From Podospora anserina (taxonomy: Eukaryota), in the NCBI GenBank assembly GCA_017654855.1, contig CM030333.1, positions 1,922,001 through 1,986,000 on the forward strand: a stretch of 64,000 bases of DNA, read 5' to 3'. A model generated the notes under the pieces. That model worked only from the letters and a program-made list of their open reading frames with translations. It did not search any database and was not told where the DNA came from. A program made the position numbers and the translations under genes. This document shows positions 18,173-25,652 of the stretch, piece after piece; within the stretch, counting starts at the first letter, position 1, and every line of letters starts with the position of its first letter.

Positions 18173-20318
18173 TTTGGTGATGTTCTGGTTGTGGTTGCGA
18201 CAAGCGCGCAGTGTGAGCCTGTTGATGGATTGTCTGTTTTGATGTGGATGTAGTTGTCGGGCGGTTGGAATGACGTCTGAGACGGATTGATTCACTTGGC
18301 GCACGCTGTCTCTGCTGGCAAAAAAAATCCGGAAAAGTGAAGAAGATGTTGTGTTCAACGAAAGTCAGAATGAAGCAGAGGGGGGGGGCCGTAACGAGTG
18401 GCACTGAAACAAGCAACAAGAATGCAGTTCCCTCTGCGATATTAAACAATTTGCAACTGAAACGATGGTAAGAAATGTGCCAGAAGTTGACTGGAGGAAG
18501 GAAAGAGAGAGAAAGATTGACGGCAACACGGAGGACGAGTCGAGGGCAGGACAGTATCAAAAATGGGCAGCAGCGGCGGGCGGGAGCAAGGCACTGGGTC
18601 CAATCATGTCAATTTGGCCCCATCCCAACTCCACTGGCACTGACAGCGACCGATAATAGCTAGCGGCCGGGCTGTGTTCGGGTACACGGCGAAGATGGAG
18701 GGTGGGATATCGGGGTACTTGGAGACAGACCAGTCAATGCATAATCCCGACAAGTACACAGCTACCAAACCCAATGGTTCCATCATAATTTCGTTTCATC
18801 AGCTTGCGCTGTGACTGCTATCCAACGGCAGGGTTCTCCTTTTGCAGGCGCGCAGCTCGTGTTTCCCCTGTGCCGGGTGTTCCGCGTGGCAAGCAATGGC
18901 TGGAGAGCGATATTCACAAGAGCGTCGTCAGAGGTTTCGCGAAAAAACCCTTGTTTGCAGCATCTGGCGAGATCGTCGAGGGCTTTTCTTGGAAATGCTT
19001 GAGAGGTCTTGGAAAATGCTTGGGTGGTGAAACAAGACTTTCGCCTTCATCTTGGCTCCTGCTTGGCGGTCTGGGCAACATCCTGGGCACGGTGCTCCGC
19101 TCTGGCCTTTTGCAACGCCTTCGGTTGGCAGCTCATCTCCGGCTCCATGCCATGTGCCATGCCACCGCAGGAAAAAGGGGAGCAGAAGGCCGATGGCGCG
19201 TTGGTTCGATCGAGAGTCACAGCTGCATAAAAATCTATATGCAAACGAATGGGACGATCTGAGGAGATTGATTCTTCGTGGGGCCTTCAGAGGCACAGAG
19301 GCCGTTCGGATAACCCTTTGGGGTGTTCTGCTCACCAAGCTGTCTTGAACTTGATGAAAACCAGGTTGTCATCGACATGACATTCTCCTCTTTTCTGTGG
19401 CTTGCAGTTTTCTGCGCATCTTGGCGCCGAGCCGGCCCCGCGCTCTCAGCACTTGGCAGCCGCCTGGGCGTTGACGTCCTGACATCTCCCGTTTGTTGAC
19501 GTTTCCGCTTGGATCCCAATTGCAGCAATATCATGTTCAACGCTCAGTGAGCTTGTTTATTTATTTGTTTGGTATCGCCACCTTCAATCTCCACCATCGG
19601 CATCATGTTGTCCAGAGACACGAGCCAGGGAACAGAGTTGCTGTCTTCTTCTACTCATCACATCAATAGTTCCTTTCTGGCCACGGGTAATCTGCTGCCA
19701 TGAAGCCCCTGTCCGCCCTTCCATCTCTGACATCTGGCCTGGCCATATCCAATCCACAACCCACCATCAAATCCCACCGCCACAACCCCGACGTATGTCC
19801 AATGCCTTGTTCTGTTGGTCTGCCACTCCCTCCTCCGCTTGCCCGTTCGTTTTTCCTTGGGTTCGGTCGTCAAGATACCTGCACAAGAAAGACGAGATGT
19901 CAGCTTCATGCAATTGAAGAAAAGCTCAAAGAAAGCAGACGTGTATCAGGGTAAGCCCCACAGCCATCTTAATATTTTCTCTTCGGTTTACTTTGCAACA
20001 TGTGAACCATGTCTTTTCCCAAATTTGGCATGGTTCTCCGGAAAGCAAGCTCGGTGCAGTTTCCTTTATAATCAATAAGATAGCCGTGAAACAATAAGCG
20101 CAAAGACAAAACGAGAAAATGCTCTTGCCTGGAAGGGTGTTGTGTTGCTGGTCCCCATGCCGAGTGGGTTGTCTTCAGGAGGGAATGTGAAAGGAAGACG
20201 CGGAATGGGAGGCTGTTAACCCGGAAGTCAAGGAAACTCTGCAGATGCAAGGAGCTCAAGTCAGCAAAACAACTCAAACCACCCAAGAACTGGATAGAGG
20301 AAGTGAAGGTAAGCAACA

Positions 20319-20392
20319 TCAGAACACCGATGCAAAAGCGTCATCGGTACGCCAGGTTGGCGTGGCCTTAATCTCTTGAGAAGTATCATCAT
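20319..20392 (-). ncRNA. Intronic box C/D snoRNA-like unit 11
   Basis: Box C 20392-20386, ACGCCA/TGGCGT stem, C' CGATGA 20346-20341, D 20322-20319. Confidence 0.72.
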
Positions 20393-20552
20393 AGAACCCG
20401 AAGGATGGAGGGTGTTGAGACCGGGGGGTGTCCTACCTGCTTGTGGTGTTTCTAGCGTGTGGGAAGCTCGTCGGGATCTGTCAGAGACCCGAAAGGTTAA
20501 CAAAGCCGTCAAGCAAACCAGCTTGAAGGTGCAGCCAGAAAAGAGGGCTCCA

Positions 20553-20639
20553 TCAGAGCGACAAGTGTTGTTTCATGATCACCGCTGTGTGGTGTGATGC
20601 TCAAATGGAATGAGTACACGTATATGAGTGTGTCATCAT
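20553..20639 (-). ncRNA. Intronic box C/D snoRNA-like unit 10 (D' guide antisense to an 18S-like sequence)
   Basis: Box C 20639-20633, D' TTGA 20604-20601, internal stem, D 20556-20553. Confidence 0.78.
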
Positions 20640-20818
20640 GAATGTCGGAGGCATGGCGGTGAGGGAAGGGGGTGGTGTTCTCACCTTTGAAGGGAGTTCT
20701 GTCTCGTAGGTAGACACGTGGGCATCGATCTCGGCTTCATCTGCTTTGGCAACAGACACCAGAGGTTAGTAAAGTAATCTTCTCAAATTGTGCTGGGTGT
20801 GCAATCAGGAGAGACAGC

Positions 20819-22637: not shown

Positions 22638-22886
22638 GATGGCCGCTAGAAGTGTGTAGGTGAGAATAGTGAAGTGAGATACTGACCTGATGAGCATGGC
22701 AGCAGGGTTGGAAATCCAGAGCTATCATTTCCTTGTTGATTCGGAGGCATCGCTGGCATCAGGTGGAGGCTCGAAGTGTAGAGGCGTGGTACCCTAGGGT
22801 TTGTCTCGAATCTGAATAGAAATATGTCAGCGTATGAACCCAACAGCAAACGAGCTACGATAGACATTGTAGAAGGAAGAGGGCTG

Positions 22887-22967
22887 TCAGATTGTTTGTT
22901 GATCTCAGGTGGCCTCAAAGAAGGTATGAGACCCATTGAATACAGAGAAGATAAGTAAACTCATCAT
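22887..22967 (-). ncRNA. Intronic box C/D snoRNA-like unit 2 (carries a U6-antisense element)
   Basis: Box C 22967-22961, D 22890-22887; inside GC-AG intron 22812-23010. Confidence 0.72.
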
Positions 22968-23294
22968 GAAGCTGTGGAATAGAGACAAATCTCGGACTGG
23001 GATCACTTGCCTGCTCGGGTTTGTCTTGCCTCTTCATGTGCCAAATGACCATGACCGACATCGTCGGGAATTGACCTGTGCTTCGATCTGCTTGGGAAGG
23101 GAAGCAGTGAGTCGTGACCGAAACAGTACTTGTCAGTAATCCACGCGAGGTGAGGATGGTGTCGACTGTCTCCCTGGAGGGAGTCGAAGGATCATGTGGT
23201 TGGAAAACAATTGGTAGACTGTCACGAGAAAAAGTTAGCAGGTCAGATATCTCAAGAATTAATGGCTAATAGAAGAGGAGTGACGAAAGGCTTG

Positions 23295-23358
23295 TCAGAT
23301 CATGCTTGTGTGCTTCAAAGTCGGGAGACTCAGTCCCAAATCCCATTTCGGTCATCAT
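23295..23358 (-). ncRNA. Intronic box C/D snoRNA-like unit 1 (coordinates span box C to box D)
   Basis: Box C ATGATGA 23358-23352, D' CTGA 23333-23330, D CTGA 23298-23295; inside intron 23219-23407. Confidence 0.75.
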
Positions 23359-25652
23359 GTTGGCTGCAATGTCTTGTAGTGCTGCGATAGGTTTTCTCTT
23401 GACATACCGACTAAGGACATGGGAATAATGCCATCGAGGCATATGGGAAAACTTATGATGATCAGATCGAGTCCTGATCAATGTGACGATGATCAGCCCA
23501 TGGGTCTATTGGAAAGGCAAAGAGAAGATGGATAGACATACCAATGGCGATGATGATTAGGCGAGTACCTAAGACGATGGAGTTGCTCAGAGCGATCCAA
23601 ATTGGTTGCTCGAGTACCGTAGTCCTGGTCTGACGAAATAAGAAAGAAGTTGCCCACGCCTACAAGGTCAAAGAAGATGATGGGGTGGACAAGCGAGGGG
23701 TCAAGAAATGGGGAGCCAGAGGCATGGGCCGGGGGGTCTCGGCGAGGGGACAAGCTGCCGCATCCTTCCGGCTTTACAAGAAATCTCGATGCGGGTTCTC
23801 TTCAAATAGAAGACAGCGGAAAGCAACAGAGAATATGCTGATACATAGGCCTTCTCCCAATGTGGAAGACGAGTTTTACGGCCATCTACAAGGAGAAAAT
23901 CAGTAGGAATGAAAGGGGATAGGGAGTCGACGATCACGAAGGGCATGAAAAAGTATCATTGAACATAGAAATGCCTGATATGCGGATCATACTGAAATAG
24001 GGATCTCAGAGCCATTGAGTGACATCTTACGTAGAGTTACGAACCGAAATACCAAGGATTGATTACCTTATGGAAAACGAACAGATTGATCGCGTCCAGC
24101 ACCACTAGTTTGCAGCAGTTTCACCGGAATTGTCAACACAGGTATGTCGAAAGACCCCAGCTCCAATAACCTAGGATAGCGCTCAGATTCATGCAGAGAG
24201 AATCCGGTGTTAGCGAGGGCATTCCCTTCAAATACCCAGGCGGCTTTGCCATTTGCGAACAGCCCGAAAAAGAGGACGGCACTGTGGCAGTTGTTATGCT
24301 GTTGATAGAAAAACTAAATCCACACGCCCTCCTATCAGGAAATATAAATGCTGTTCAGATAAGGCTAGTTAACTAGATCACTCATACATTAAGGACTTGG
24401 GCCTACGATGCGTGCCAAAGGGGGGTAGCCCAGTTGCAACTTGTGAAGACCCGCTTTGGTGGGCATTGAAGCTGCGTTCGATCATTTCAGACACATTAAA
24501 AACAACGTTAAACGACTATCGCAGCACATAGCCCCAGATCAAATTACATGCCCGTACAGTTGCAACCATACGCAGCCAACCAAGCCCCTTTTTTGGCGCT
24601 CGGGCCATGTGAAGTAAACAAAGGAGCACTCAGGGGCTACGGCATGCTCGGGTTTGTCTACAGCTCCCAGTTCTAAAAATCGGCATATGCCGAGAAAGTG
24701 AAGCCAAAAGTAAGTCTCAGTGATAATGTAGCCGCGTTTGCATTTCTTTTCTCTTTGTTAGTGCACCATCTCATCCCTCTCAACAGTCAGGTTCCATTTC
24801 TGCTCTGGTTAGTTCAAATCGAATGGTACGTTTATGTCTGCACTTTATGTAATTTGAGTATTCAACAGCCTCATGTGAAGGCCGTTGAAACCGGCAGAGC
24901 GGGGGCTGATGCTTTGAAGCTTGGTACTTGCATTGGGGGCTTCCAACATTATCAATCTCTCTCCTTCAGCTTCATCCCATGTGGTGATGGCCGCAGTTGG
25001 ACATGAGATGACATCTGCCTGCAGCTGGCTGACAACTGAAGAGGCTATGTATGCACCATGACTAAACTGGATCCTTGGCCGCCTCTGTGTGACGTCAATT
25101 GCCAACAGGTTGTGAAGAAAGGGGCAAAAAGAGCAGTGACCTGACTCGAAGGGTAAAGTCAACTAGTATATAGTGAACTGGTAGCAGTGGCAGTATAAGA
25201 ATGGGATACAAAGACTCTGGAGGCGGCAGGTGTCGGTCAAAAATATCAATGACAGGGCCTTTTTGTGTCGCTGACAACAATTGACGGCAACTTCTGATTG
25301 TGCCCATTGGTTGGTGGTCTGTGCCACATCACAGTTTGTTGCCTTGGCGCCTGAACAACTAAGCCAAGCGACGAGCGGTCAGGTTGTTATCGGTTATCAG
25401 AATTTTTTTGAAAATCTAAGCCCCACCAAAGAAGTGCGGCTTCCCCTCCCCCACCTTCCCACTGATTCAAACCTACCACAGGGCAAAGGCGCAGCAAACC
25501 AACCCTGAACTAAACTCTCTTGTTGCCTCCTGGTACTAGTTGGCTTGCCTGCGAAGGAACAAAGGACGTCGCATATTTTTTTTCTGCCCGTTCTTTCGTT
25601 TTGGATTTTTGATCCATCAAACCCATCTATCTTCCAGCATCCACAGCACAAC

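What the first reader, a model, noticed from the sequence alone, without database searches (positions are those of the whole stretch)
20239..23541. Hidden array of 11 intron-encoded box C/D snoRNA-like RNAs in an ORF-less host transcript
Seen: this region has no credible ORF, yet the minus strand repeats one grammar 11 times. Each repeat has a splice donor, about 40-57 nt (longer where a minisatellite is inserted), box C (RTGATGA), guide, D', stem, C', guide, box D (CTGA), about 45-57 nt, branch point and YAG acceptor. Two snoRNA-free introns are interspersed. Established: non-coding hosts with intronic C/D snoRNAs exist (vertebrate UHG/GAS5; fungal snR72-78-type clusters), and intronic C/D snoRNAs tend to lie about 50 nt upstream of the branch point. 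Inference: this is a large one-snoRNA-per-intron host. Its guides do not look like the snR72-78, snR57-55-61 or snR41-70-51 clusters as I recall them, so it may be an undescribed lineage-specific guide-RNA system.
Basis: partly seen in the sequence, partly recalled or inferred. Interest (0 to 1): 0.9.

Follow-up and report, generated by a model that had tools for sequence, protein, structure and literature searches.

The report
Eleven-intron snoRNA host gene in Podospora
This stretch is a non-coding gene of a Podospora fungus whose eleven long introns each carry one box C/D small nucleolar RNA, a gene layout already known from Neurospora and vertebrates, although what most of these eleven guide RNAs target could not be found.

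Summary
The minus strand of 20239-23541 carries 11 units, each with a perfect box C (RTGATGA) and box D (CTGA), one per predicted intron. The spacing is very regular. None of 500 shuffles gave more than one such unit.

One predicted snoRNA intron (K, 20436-20239) is removed exactly as predicted in a contig of a public run. Two further introns downstream are also spliced, so the host runs on to about 19590. The joined exons have no ORF longer than 131 aa and no Pfam match.

A flanking gene places the window in the Podospora anserina species complex (Sordariales). In Neurospora crassa, 45 of 55 C/D snoRNAs are intronic, and non-coding hosts like the vertebrate snoRNA host gene UHG are published. 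The kind is therefore known.

What is unusual:
- There is no Rfam match.
- Only one guide (unit J, 13 bp to 18S) is complementary to fungal rRNA beyond chance.

The organism's own rRNA, snRNAs and tRNAs could not be searched, so the targets stay open.

Verdict: a real, probably unannotated, large snoRNA host. It is a new member of a known kind, of moderate interest.

The parts
19590..23700 (-). Approximate extent of the non-coding host transcript. The 5' end was not mapped. The 3' end is near an AATAAA-like stretch at about 19550.
   Evidence: Predicted exon chain. Contigs of the coded runs cover 19400-20812. Longest ATG ORF in the joined exons is 131 aa. No Pfam match for 10 ORFs.
23219..23407 (-). 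Intron A (189 nt, GTATGT..CAG) holding snoRNA A (box C to box D, 23358-23295)
22812..23010 (-). Intron B (199 nt, GC donor GCAAGT..CAG) holding snoRNA B (22967-22887)
   Evidence: Use of a GC donor in this host is shown for another intron (20128) by a contig joint.
22491..22686 (-). Intron C (196 nt, GTCAGT..TAG) holding snoRNA C (22637-22566)
22288..22456 (-). Intron D (169 nt, GTAGGA..CAG) holding snoRNA D (22408-22343, or to 22339 if the adjoining ATGA is the D box)
22028..22224 (-). Intron E (197 nt, GTAAGT..CAG) holding snoRNA E (22186-22104)
21776..21981 (-). Intron F (206 nt, GTGAGC..CAG) holding snoRNA F (21928-21848, or to 21844 with the second CTGA)
21340..21610 (-). Intron G (271 nt, GTAAGT..CAG) holding a 17-nt x 5.5 minisatellite (21492-21584) and snoRNA G (21489-21411)
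   Evidence: G is a paralogue of H.
21618..21751 (-). 13-nt x 10.3 minisatellite inside exon 7 (21775-21611)
21103..21305 (-). Intron H (203 nt, GTAAGT..CAG) holding snoRNA H (21248-21170)
20973..21059 (-). snoRNA-free intron X (87 nt, GTGAGT..GCTAAC..CAG)
20741..20936 (-). Intron I (196 nt, GTAAGT..CAG) holding snoRNA I (20897-20819)
   Evidence: The weak Rfam snR64 match (18 bits, E 7.4) is not significant.
20478..20684 (-). Intron J (207 nt, GTGAGA..CAG) holding snoRNA J (20639-20553). Its D' guide pairs 13 nt with 18S rRNA.
20239..20436 (-). Intron K (198 nt, GTAGGA..CAG) holding snoRNA K (20392-20319). Its removal is seen in a contig.
   Evidence: Joint 20238 to 20437, skipping 198 nt, CT..AC on the + strand, 1 contig of run X2..
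19879..20128 (-). Downstream introns without a snoRNA that share one acceptor: GT donor at 19961 (83 nt) or GC donor at 20128 (250 nt). This is alternative 5' splice-site use.
   Evidence: Joints in run X2. Sequence read. The 250-nt intron has no unusual fold (z = 0.12) and no C box.

Best explanation
This is a UHG/GAS5-like non-coding snoRNA host gene of a Podospora species (Sordariales), transcribed on the minus strand from about 23700 to about 19590.

Eleven of its introns each hold one box C/D snoRNA of about 75-95 nt. Each sits 38-57 nt behind the 5' splice site and 67-80 nt ahead of the 3' splice site.

Inferred mechanism, from what is established for intronic C/D snoRNAs:
1. RNA polymerase II makes the host pre-RNA.
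2. The core proteins (Snu13, Nop56, Nop58, Nop1/fibrillarin) assemble on the C/D kink-turn during splicing. The fixed distance to the branch point favours this.
3. The lariat is debranched and trimmed by exonucleases to the protein-protected ends.
4. The joined exons are a by-product.
5. Each snoRNA then directs 2'-O-methylation of the nucleotide paired with the fifth position upstream of box D or D'.

Shown here: the motif array, its geometry, the lack of coding capacity, and removal of one snoRNA intron and two downstream introns.

Inferred: stable snoRNAs, snoRNP assembly and methylation.

Targets:
- Only unit J has a clear candidate, an A in the 18S stretch UGGAAUGAGUACA.
- The other guides have no assignable target in the rRNAs I could test.
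For: Motifs and geometry:
- 11 of 11 units have a perfect RTGATGA and CTGA. Most show a recognisable D', an internal hairpin and a C' of the form xTGAxxx (read).
- The region holds 12 C-to-D pairs against 0.20 expected, and 11 full-grammar matches against 0.014 expected in 500 shuffles.
- Geometry is uniform in 10 of 11 units.
- It matches what PMC2780460 reports for N. crassa intronic snoRNAs: mostly 41-60 nt from the 5' splice site (section read).
- It also matches the optimum of about 70-80 nt upstream of the 3' splice site, which I recall from Hirose and Steitz 2001 (not read here).
- snoRNA introns are 169-271 nt, against 87 and 83 nt for the two small snoRNA-free introns.

Splicing and coding capacity:
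- A contig of run X2 joins 20238 to 20437, removing exactly the predicted intron K with GT..AG on the minus strand. Two more minus-strand joints lie downstream.
- No ORF longer than 131 aa in about 1.8 kb of joined exons. No Pfam match for 10 of 10 ORFs tried.

Paralogues G and H:
- They keep identical boxes and flanks: 13 of 13 nt before box C, 9 of 9 in C', and 12 of 12 around box D.
- Both guide regions are only about 25% alike, less than the surrounding intron at about 66%. This is the pattern expected when guides are exchanged and boxes are kept.

Unit J and precedent:
- The D' guide of unit J pairs 13 of 13 Watson-Crick with 18S in 3 of 4 fungal rDNA loci, starting at position 2 from the box. 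About 1% of shuffled guides score as well.
- Precedent in the same order: 45 of 55 N. crassa C/D snoRNAs are intronic, and six clusters have UHG-like hosts with alternative splicing (PMC2780460).
Against: - No direct evidence for stable small RNAs.
- Only 1 of the 11 snoRNA introns is seen spliced.
- No Rfam family reaches its threshold. The best scores are 18 bits (snR64, E 7.4) and 14.6 bits (archaeal sR28, E 1.7).
- Guide complementarity to fungal 18S, 5.8S and 25S is at chance level overall: 78 geometry-valid duplexes against 84, 51 and 48 on reversed, complemented and antisense targets.
- Of 29 guide/box combinations, only 3 had a shuffle fraction of 0.115 or less, and about 3 are expected by chance. 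A real guide used as control (the Rfam snR64 consensus) scored 11, with fraction 0.035.
- A terminal stem next to boxes C and D is evident in only 4 of 11 units (C, G, H, I; read).
- The rRNAs used come from metagenome contigs of other fungi, not from this organism.
- The 'RNA' label of the runs is a guess by the tool.
Confidence: 0.8

Rival explanations
1. Same host architecture, but most of the eleven are orphan or non-rRNA guides. They would be a lineage-specific family that grew by duplication of exon-plus-intron units. Their targets would be snRNAs, tRNAs, pre-rRNA spacers or mRNAs, or they would have a role other than methylation. This would be a fungal counterpart of the mammalian orphan clusters SNORD115/116.
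For: - No rRNA complementarity beyond chance for 10 of 11 units.
- No Rfam match.
- No geometry-valid hit enriched near the 20 listed N. crassa 18S sites: 3 of 30 hits within 4 nt, against 2.7 expected.
- G and H show that units do duplicate in place and change their guides.
- Units of 200-300 bp are below the size at which RIP acts (about 400 bp, PMC2780460, passage seen).
Against: - Orphan C/D snoRNAs are rare in fungi: 2 each in yeast and N. crassa, and most A. fumigatus orphans were later assigned (PMC5824354, passages seen). Ten in one gene has a low prior.
- The organism's own rRNA, including its variable segments, and its snRNAs and tRNAs were not available.
- Apart from G and H, the units show no sequence kinship, so there is no sign of a recent expansion.
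Confidence: 0.3
2. The units are decaying or never-functional snoRNA-like relics inside the introns of a long non-coding RNA. The boxes are there, but no stable snoRNP forms.
For: - Missing terminal stems in 7 of 11 units.
- Unassignable guides.
- No small-RNA data.
Against: - All 11 C boxes and all 11 D boxes are perfect.
- The spacing to both splice sites is held within about 20 nt in 10 of 11 units. Relics would have drifted.
- G and H keep their boxes while their guides differ.
- snoRNA introns are about 2.3 times the length of the host's snoRNA-free introns, which suggests that their content is maintained.
Confidence: 0.07
3. The host is a protein-coding gene with snoRNA-bearing introns, not a non-coding host.
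For: A 131-aa ATG ORF runs through exons 3-7, including the 13-nt minisatellite.
Against: - That ORF covers 393 of about 1793 nt and owes its length to a stop-free repeat.
- Internal exons are 34-208 nt, with no frame running through them.
- 0 of 10 ORFs in and around the region match Pfam at E up to 0.1.
Confidence: 0.04

Closest known systems
UHG-like C/D snoRNA gene clusters of Neurospora crassa (Liu et al. 2009, PMC2780460)
   Same: - Same fungal order.
- Non-coding spliced host with one C/D snoRNA per intron.
- Only short ORFs.
- Alternative splicing of the host.
- snoRNA about 41-60 nt from the 5' splice site.
   Different: - From recall of the snR72-78 homologue cluster, the N. crassa clusters hold at most about 6-7 snoRNAs. 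This host holds 11.
- Five of the six N. crassa clusters are homologues of yeast clusters with clear rRNA targets. Here there is no Rfam match, and only one guide has a significant rRNA match.
- Orthology could not be tested, because the N. crassa snoRNA sequences are in closed supplements.
Vertebrate snoRNA host genes UHG (SNHG1) and GAS5
   Same: - Exons poorly coding.
- The functional products are intronic C/D snoRNAs, one per intron.
- snoRNAs lie at a fixed distance upstream of the branch point (recalled).
   Different: - The vertebrate hosts carry 5' TOP promoters and known rRNA guides.
- Their introns are much longer.
- No sequence relationship.
Fungal polycistronic clusters I-III: snR72-78, snR57-55-61 and snR41-70-51 (Luo et al. 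2013, PMC3596301)
   Same: In filamentous ascomycetes these clusters are also fully intronic, in non-coding hosts (section read).
   Different: - None of the 11 units matches the Rfam models of these families at E up to 10.
- None has a guide for their conserved rRNA sites.
Mammalian orphan clusters SNORD115/SNORD116 (recalled)
   Same: Many C/D snoRNAs, one per intron of a non-coding host, without rRNA complementarity.
   Different: - Those are tandem arrays of near-identical copies. Here only G and H are recognisably related.
- Orphan status here is not established.

Membership tests
Box C/D snoRNA | Box C (RUGAUGA) near the 5' end and box D (CUGA) near the 3' end, 60-100 nt apart | tested here: met
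   11 of 11 units have perfect boxes, 64-87 nt from the first base of box C to the last base of box D.
Box C/D snoRNA | Short terminal stem that brings boxes C and D together | tested here: inconclusive
   A stem of 5 or more pairs in 4 of 11 units (C, G, H, I; read). None is evident in the other 7.
Box C/D snoRNA | Internal D' and C' boxes | tested here: met
   - A canonical CTGA D' in 6 units (A, D, E, G, H, I) and a variant differing by one or two letters in the others.
- A C' of the form xTGAxxx 13-26 nt upstream of box D in about 10 of 11 units.
- A hairpin between D' and C' in most units (read).
- The box assignment is my own and was not scored by a program.
Box C/D snoRNA | Guide of 10 or more nt complementary to rRNA or snRNA, with the target paired to position 5 upstream of D or D' | tested here: inconclusive
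   - Significant for 1 of 11 units (J, 13 bp to 18S; shuffle fraction 0.01).
- The rest are at chance level on heterologous fungal rRNA.
- The organism's own rRNA, snRNAs and tRNAs were not available.
Box C/D snoRNA | Stable 70-100 nt RNA bound by Snu13, Nop56, Nop58 and Nop1 | not testable with these tools
   The single read-laying run returned contigs only.
UHG-like non-coding snoRNA host gene | One snoRNA per intron of a spliced polymerase II transcript | tested here: inconclusive
   - Predicted for 11 of 11 units from the splice signals.
- Removal seen for 1 of 11 snoRNA introns, plus 2 downstream joints, each in one contig of one run.
UHG-like non-coding snoRNA host gene | Joined exons without a long or conserved ORF | tested here: met
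   - Longest ORF 131 aa of about 1793 nt.
- 0 of 10 ORFs match Pfam.
- Conservation of the ORF in relatives was not tested.
Intronic snoRNA positional rule | snoRNA about 70-80 nt upstream of the 3' splice site, about 50 nt upstream of the branch point | tested here: met
   Box D to 3' splice site is 67-80 nt, and box D to branch A is 51-60 nt, in 10 of 11 units. Unit D has 55 and 32. The rule itself is recalled.
Fungal clusters snR72-78 / snR57-55-61 / snR41-70-51 | Sequence and guide homology to those snoRNA families | tested here: not met
   No match to any of these Rfam families at E up to 10 over 19900-23900. No guide for their rRNA sites.

The most novel reading that the evidence does not exclude
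A single Podospora host gene makes about ten well-formed C/D snoRNAs that do not guide methylation of conserved rRNA positions. This would be a lineage-specific set that grew by duplication of exon-plus-intron units small enough to escape RIP, with its guides then re-aimed at non-rRNA or species-specific targets. It would be the first fungal counterpart of the mammalian orphan snoRNA clusters.
Probability: 0.3. Interest if true: 0.7.

Novelty: new member of a known kind. Interest (0 to 1): 0.45.

Why it matters
- The 2008 Podospora anserina genome paper lists only 13-15 snoRNAs, all found by Rfam homology (PMC2441463, passages seen).
- The 2022 RNA-seq re-annotation reports 1732 novel transcribed regions, 968 of them spliced. 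The word snoRNA does not occur in its main text (PMC9801653).
- A homology survey scored P. anserina as having lost 15% of C/D families (PMC5824354).
- This locus would add 11 C/D snoRNAs in one stroke and explain one spliced 'non-coding' transcript.
- If the guides truly lack rRNA targets, it gives a genetically tractable fungus in which to ask what orphan C/D snoRNAs do and how new guides arise after duplication. The G/H pair is a ready example.

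Tried and rejected
**Resources that were not available**
- Whole genome: none is held for this window. The organism's own rRNA, snRNAs and tRNAs could not be searched.
- Supplements are closed. The N. crassa snoRNA sequences (PMC2780460) and the snoStrip family tables (PMC5824354) that might name orthologues were not seen.

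**Sequencing runs**
- No RNA holder is listed.
- Four runs guessed to be RNA were laid. They cover only 19400-20812. Nothing lay on 20876-24300, so the upstream junctions are untested.

**Rfam**
- At gathering score, only a tRNA matched in the window.
- At E up to 10 on 19900-23900 there were six weak matches, none significant.

**rRNA targets**
- The ITS3 primer site fetched 114 rDNA loci from metagenomes. Four were annotated with Rfam.
- Unconstrained duplex search: 191 hits against 204 on reversed targets.
- Geometry-constrained search: 78 against 84, 51 and 48.
- Per-guide shuffles. With all 114 loci and both strands, only the second-box reading of unit F stood out (15; fraction 0.02). That hit lies on the strand opposite the locus's ITS3 primer match, so I read it as antisense to the rRNA. 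The strand was inferred and not checked with Rfam.
- Weak candidates not adopted: H to 18S A930 (10 bp); D and F, if the second box is the D box, to the 25S stretch AGAUGAAAAG (A362 in L070); C to 25S in L040 only; B, 12 bp to a variable hairpin of L070 25S with the wrong geometry.
- Match to the listed N. crassa 18S sites: 3 of 30 hits within 4 nt, against 2.7 expected.

**Other checks**
- Complementarity of the units to the rest of the window: only scattered 12-mers and one 15-mer, outside any guide.
- An H/ACA snoRNA in the 250-nt downstream intron: no unusual fold (z = 0.12) and no Rfam match.
- Coding host.
- The bacterial promoter and terminator scan has no bearing on a fungal gene.
- The promoter-motif paper (PMC4138321) gives no shared motif for N. 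crassa snoRNA genes, so promoter analysis was dropped.

Full report
**1. What is there**

Read on the minus strand, 23541 to 20239 holds eleven units with a perfect box C (RTGATGA) followed 50-80 nt later by a perfect box D (CTGA). I call them A to K. Their C boxes start at 23358, 22967, 22637, 22408, 22186, 21928, 21489, 21248, 20897, 20639 and 20392.

Most show the full C/D layout:
- a guide of 9-28 nt after box C;
- a D' box (CTGA in six units, a one- or two-letter variant in the others);
- a short hairpin;
- a C' box of the form xTGAxxx;
- a second guide of 13-26 nt;
- box D.

This is far beyond chance:
- RTGATGA occurs 28 times on the minus strand of the 64-kb window, 12 of them in these 3 kb.
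- C-to-D pairs number 12 in the region, against a mean of 0.20 in 500 dinucleotide-preserving shuffles.
- The whole grammar (donor, C, D, branch motif, YAG) is met at 11 C boxes, against a mean of 0.014 and a maximum of 1.
- Those 11 are ten of the units plus an exonic RTGATGA at 22478 that borrows unit D's signals. Unit C was missed only because its donor GTCAGT is outside my donor pattern.
- Outside the region, both strands together gave one match, at 11972(-) inside a long HET-domain reading frame. I take that as the false-positive rate.

**2. Gene structure**

Each unit lies in its own predicted intron.
- Donors are GTATGT, GCAAGT, GTCAGT, GTAGGA, GTAAGT, GTGAGC, GTAAGT, GTAAGT, GTAAGT, GTGAGA and GTAGGA.
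- Every intron ends in YAG, 15-25 nt after a CTRAY or TTAAC branch motif.
- The 5' splice site to box C is 38-57 nt in 10 of 11 units. Unit G has 121 nt because of a 17-nt x 5.5 minisatellite.
- Box D to the branch A is 51-60 nt, and box D to the 3' splice site is 67-80 nt, in 10 of 11. Unit D has 32 and 55.
- The snoRNA introns are 169-207 nt (G: 271). The snoRNA-free introns of the same gene are 87 nt (X, 21059-20973) and 83 nt (19961-19879).
- Internal exons are 34-208 nt. One carries a 13-nt x 10.3 minisatellite.
I regard it as doubtful.

**3. RNA evidence**

No run is on record as RNA. Four runs that the tool guesses to be RNA were laid as contigs.
- A contig of run X2 joins 20238 to 20437. 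It skips 198 nt with CT..AC on the plus strand, which is exactly predicted intron K with GT..AG on the minus strand.
- The same run joins 19876/19877 to 19960 (83 nt skipped, GT..AG after the tool's +2 shift) and to 20128 (250 nt skipped). Read against the sequence, the second is a GC..AG intron using the same acceptor.
- The transcript is therefore on the minus strand and spliced. It uses a GC donor at least once, which makes the predicted GC donor of intron B credible.
- Other contigs run unspliced across introns I, J and K, as pre-RNA or DNA would.
- Each joint rests on one contig of one run.

**4. Coding capacity**

Joining the predicted exons gives about 1.8 kb. The longest ATG ORF is 131 aa, and it runs through the stop-free minisatellite. 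None of 10 ORFs in and around the region matches Pfam at E up to 0.1. The 250-nt downstream intron has no C box and no unusual fold.

**5. Organism and context**

The lipoxygenase frame at 8457-10481(+) is 100% identical over 92% of its length to a protein cluster named from Podospora bellae-mahoneyi. The next relatives, at 72-77% identity, are other Sordariales. The window is therefore from the Podospora anserina species complex.

The host lies between a GH72 glucanosyltransferase gene (16465-18008, -) and an ABC-F gene (25509-27510, +). INO80 lies further on.

**6. What the guides point at**

Rfam gives nothing. Only a tRNA reaches gathering score in the window. Over 19900-23900 at E up to 10 the best matches are snR64 at unit I (18 bits against a threshold of 38, E 7.4) and an archaeal sR28 at unit A (E 1.7). 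The snR64 alignment lacks that family's guide.

With no genome held, I fetched rDNA from metagenome contigs through the ITS3 primer site and delimited 18S, 5.8S and 25S in four loci with Rfam. Two of them (L070, L002) have 18S 3' ends that I recall as typical of filamentous ascomycetes.

Three searches agree:
- **(a) Unconstrained duplexes:** 191 on the rRNAs against 204 on reversed rRNAs.
- **(b) Duplexes that start within 3 nt of a D-like box and pair through positions 3-10:** 78 against 84, 51 and 48 on three kinds of control target.
- **(c) Best score per guide against 200 shuffles of that guide:** of 29 guide/box readings, only unit J's D' guide stands out. It pairs 13 of 13 Watson-Crick with 18S UGGAAUGAGUACA, aims at the first A after GG (position 508 in L070), and has a shuffle fraction of 0.01. 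The next best are 0.105 and 0.115, as expected by chance. Two box positions in that call were off by one or two bases. The position-free scan and the corrected run do not change the picture.

A genuine guide, the Rfam snR64 consensus, scored 11 at the expected 25S stretch (fraction 0.035). The method therefore sees ordinary guides, though with modest power.

None of the geometry-valid 18S hits falls preferentially near the 20 18S sites listed for N. crassa: 3 of 30 within 4 nt, against 2.7 expected.

The cluster is thus not a set of guides for conserved rRNA positions. It is not a copy of the snR72-78, snR57-55-61 or snR41-70-51 clusters. Targets in variable rRNA segments, spacers, snRNAs or tRNAs of Podospora itself remain untested.

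**7. Signs of function beyond the motifs**

Only G and H are recognisably related. In their alignment:
- the 13 nt before box C, the C' box with its flank (9 nt) and the 12 nt around box D are identical;
- the intron downstream is about 66% identical;
- both guide regions are only about 25% identical, no better than random.

Guides that differ more than the neighbouring intron sequence, next to untouched boxes, suggest that the guides were exchanged or selected to differ after a local duplication. Liu et al. describe this for fungal snoRNAs as separation and recombination of functional elements (abstract).

All 22 terminal boxes are perfect, and the spacing is tightly held. Both argue against decayed relics.

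**8. How it compares with what is known**

- Liu et al. 2009 (PMC2780460; abstract, Results, Table 1 and passages read) found 55 C/D snoRNAs in N. crassa. Of these, 45 are intronic. Six clusters have hosts 'most like the UHG gene', with ORFs of 159-267 bp, alternative splicing, and snoRNAs mostly 41-60 nt from the 5' splice site.
- Luo et al. 2013 (PMC3596301; one section read) show that clusters I-III are fully intronic in filamentous ascomycetes.
- The architecture is therefore established in this very order.
- For Podospora itself, the genome paper lists 13-15 snoRNAs found by Rfam homology (PMC2441463, passages). The RNA-seq re-annotation does not mention snoRNAs (PMC9801653, term search).
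- My literature searches turned up no description of this locus. Supplements that could hold it were closed.

**9. Verdict**

- The reading as a one-snoRNA-per-intron non-coding host is very likely right (about 0.8).
- It is a new, large member of a known kind, not a new kind of system.
- The open and interesting point is that ten of the eleven guides cannot be assigned to rRNA. I give about 0.3 to the reading that they really are orphan or non-rRNA guides.

Noticed in passing
window 22599-22613 (-) and 9292-9306 (+): Positions 25-39 of unit C (the D'-like box plus the internal hairpin) are perfectly complementary over 15 nt to the coding strand of the manganese-lipoxygenase gene. By rough count about 0.0001 such matches are expected. 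The stretch is not in a guide position, so it may still be coincidence.
   Followed up: partly
window 22339-22346 (-) and 21844-21851 (-): Units D and F both end in a doubled D box (CTGA followed by ATGA, and CTGA followed by CTGA) and share the last 11 nt, TTTTCATCTGA. If the second box is the real one, both would aim at the same A in the 25S stretch AGAUGAAAAG, with 11 and 9 bp.
   Followed up: partly
window 23010 (-) and 20128 (-): The host uses GC-AG introns. The donor GCAAGA at 20128 is supported by a contig joint, and the donor GCAAGT is predicted for intron B.
   Followed up: partly
window 21492-21584 and 21618-21751: Two minisatellites lie next to each other, a 17-nt x 5.5 array in intron G and a 13-nt x 10.3 array in exon 7. 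The 17-nt unit's core CCAACCCCGG also precedes unit H and occurs in degenerate form in intron X, which suggests local duplication.
   Followed up: partly
window 2551-2659 (-) and 4044-4136 (-): Rfam reports a tRNA at 2551-2659, whereas ARAGORN reports only a tRNA-Ile(AAT) at 4044-4136. Each tool misses the other's call. Both spans (109 and 93 nt) are long enough to hold an intron.
   Followed up: no
window 11710-13620 (-): A HET-domain (heterokaryon incompatibility) gene. It holds the only chance match to the intron-snoRNA grammar outside the finding, at 11972.
   Followed up: partly
window 23411-23541 (-): The doubtful first intron holds three TGATCA palindromes and a CTGA within about 45 nt. 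This could be a degenerate C/D-like remnant or could mean nothing.
   Followed up: no
L023, + strand near 1298: The 3' guide region of unit F resembles the sense strand of 25S rRNA (a stretch I recall as AAUAGUUUUCAU) rather than its complement. Unit D has an 8-nt sense match to a stretch I recall as lying nearby. Both look like chance.
   Followed up: no
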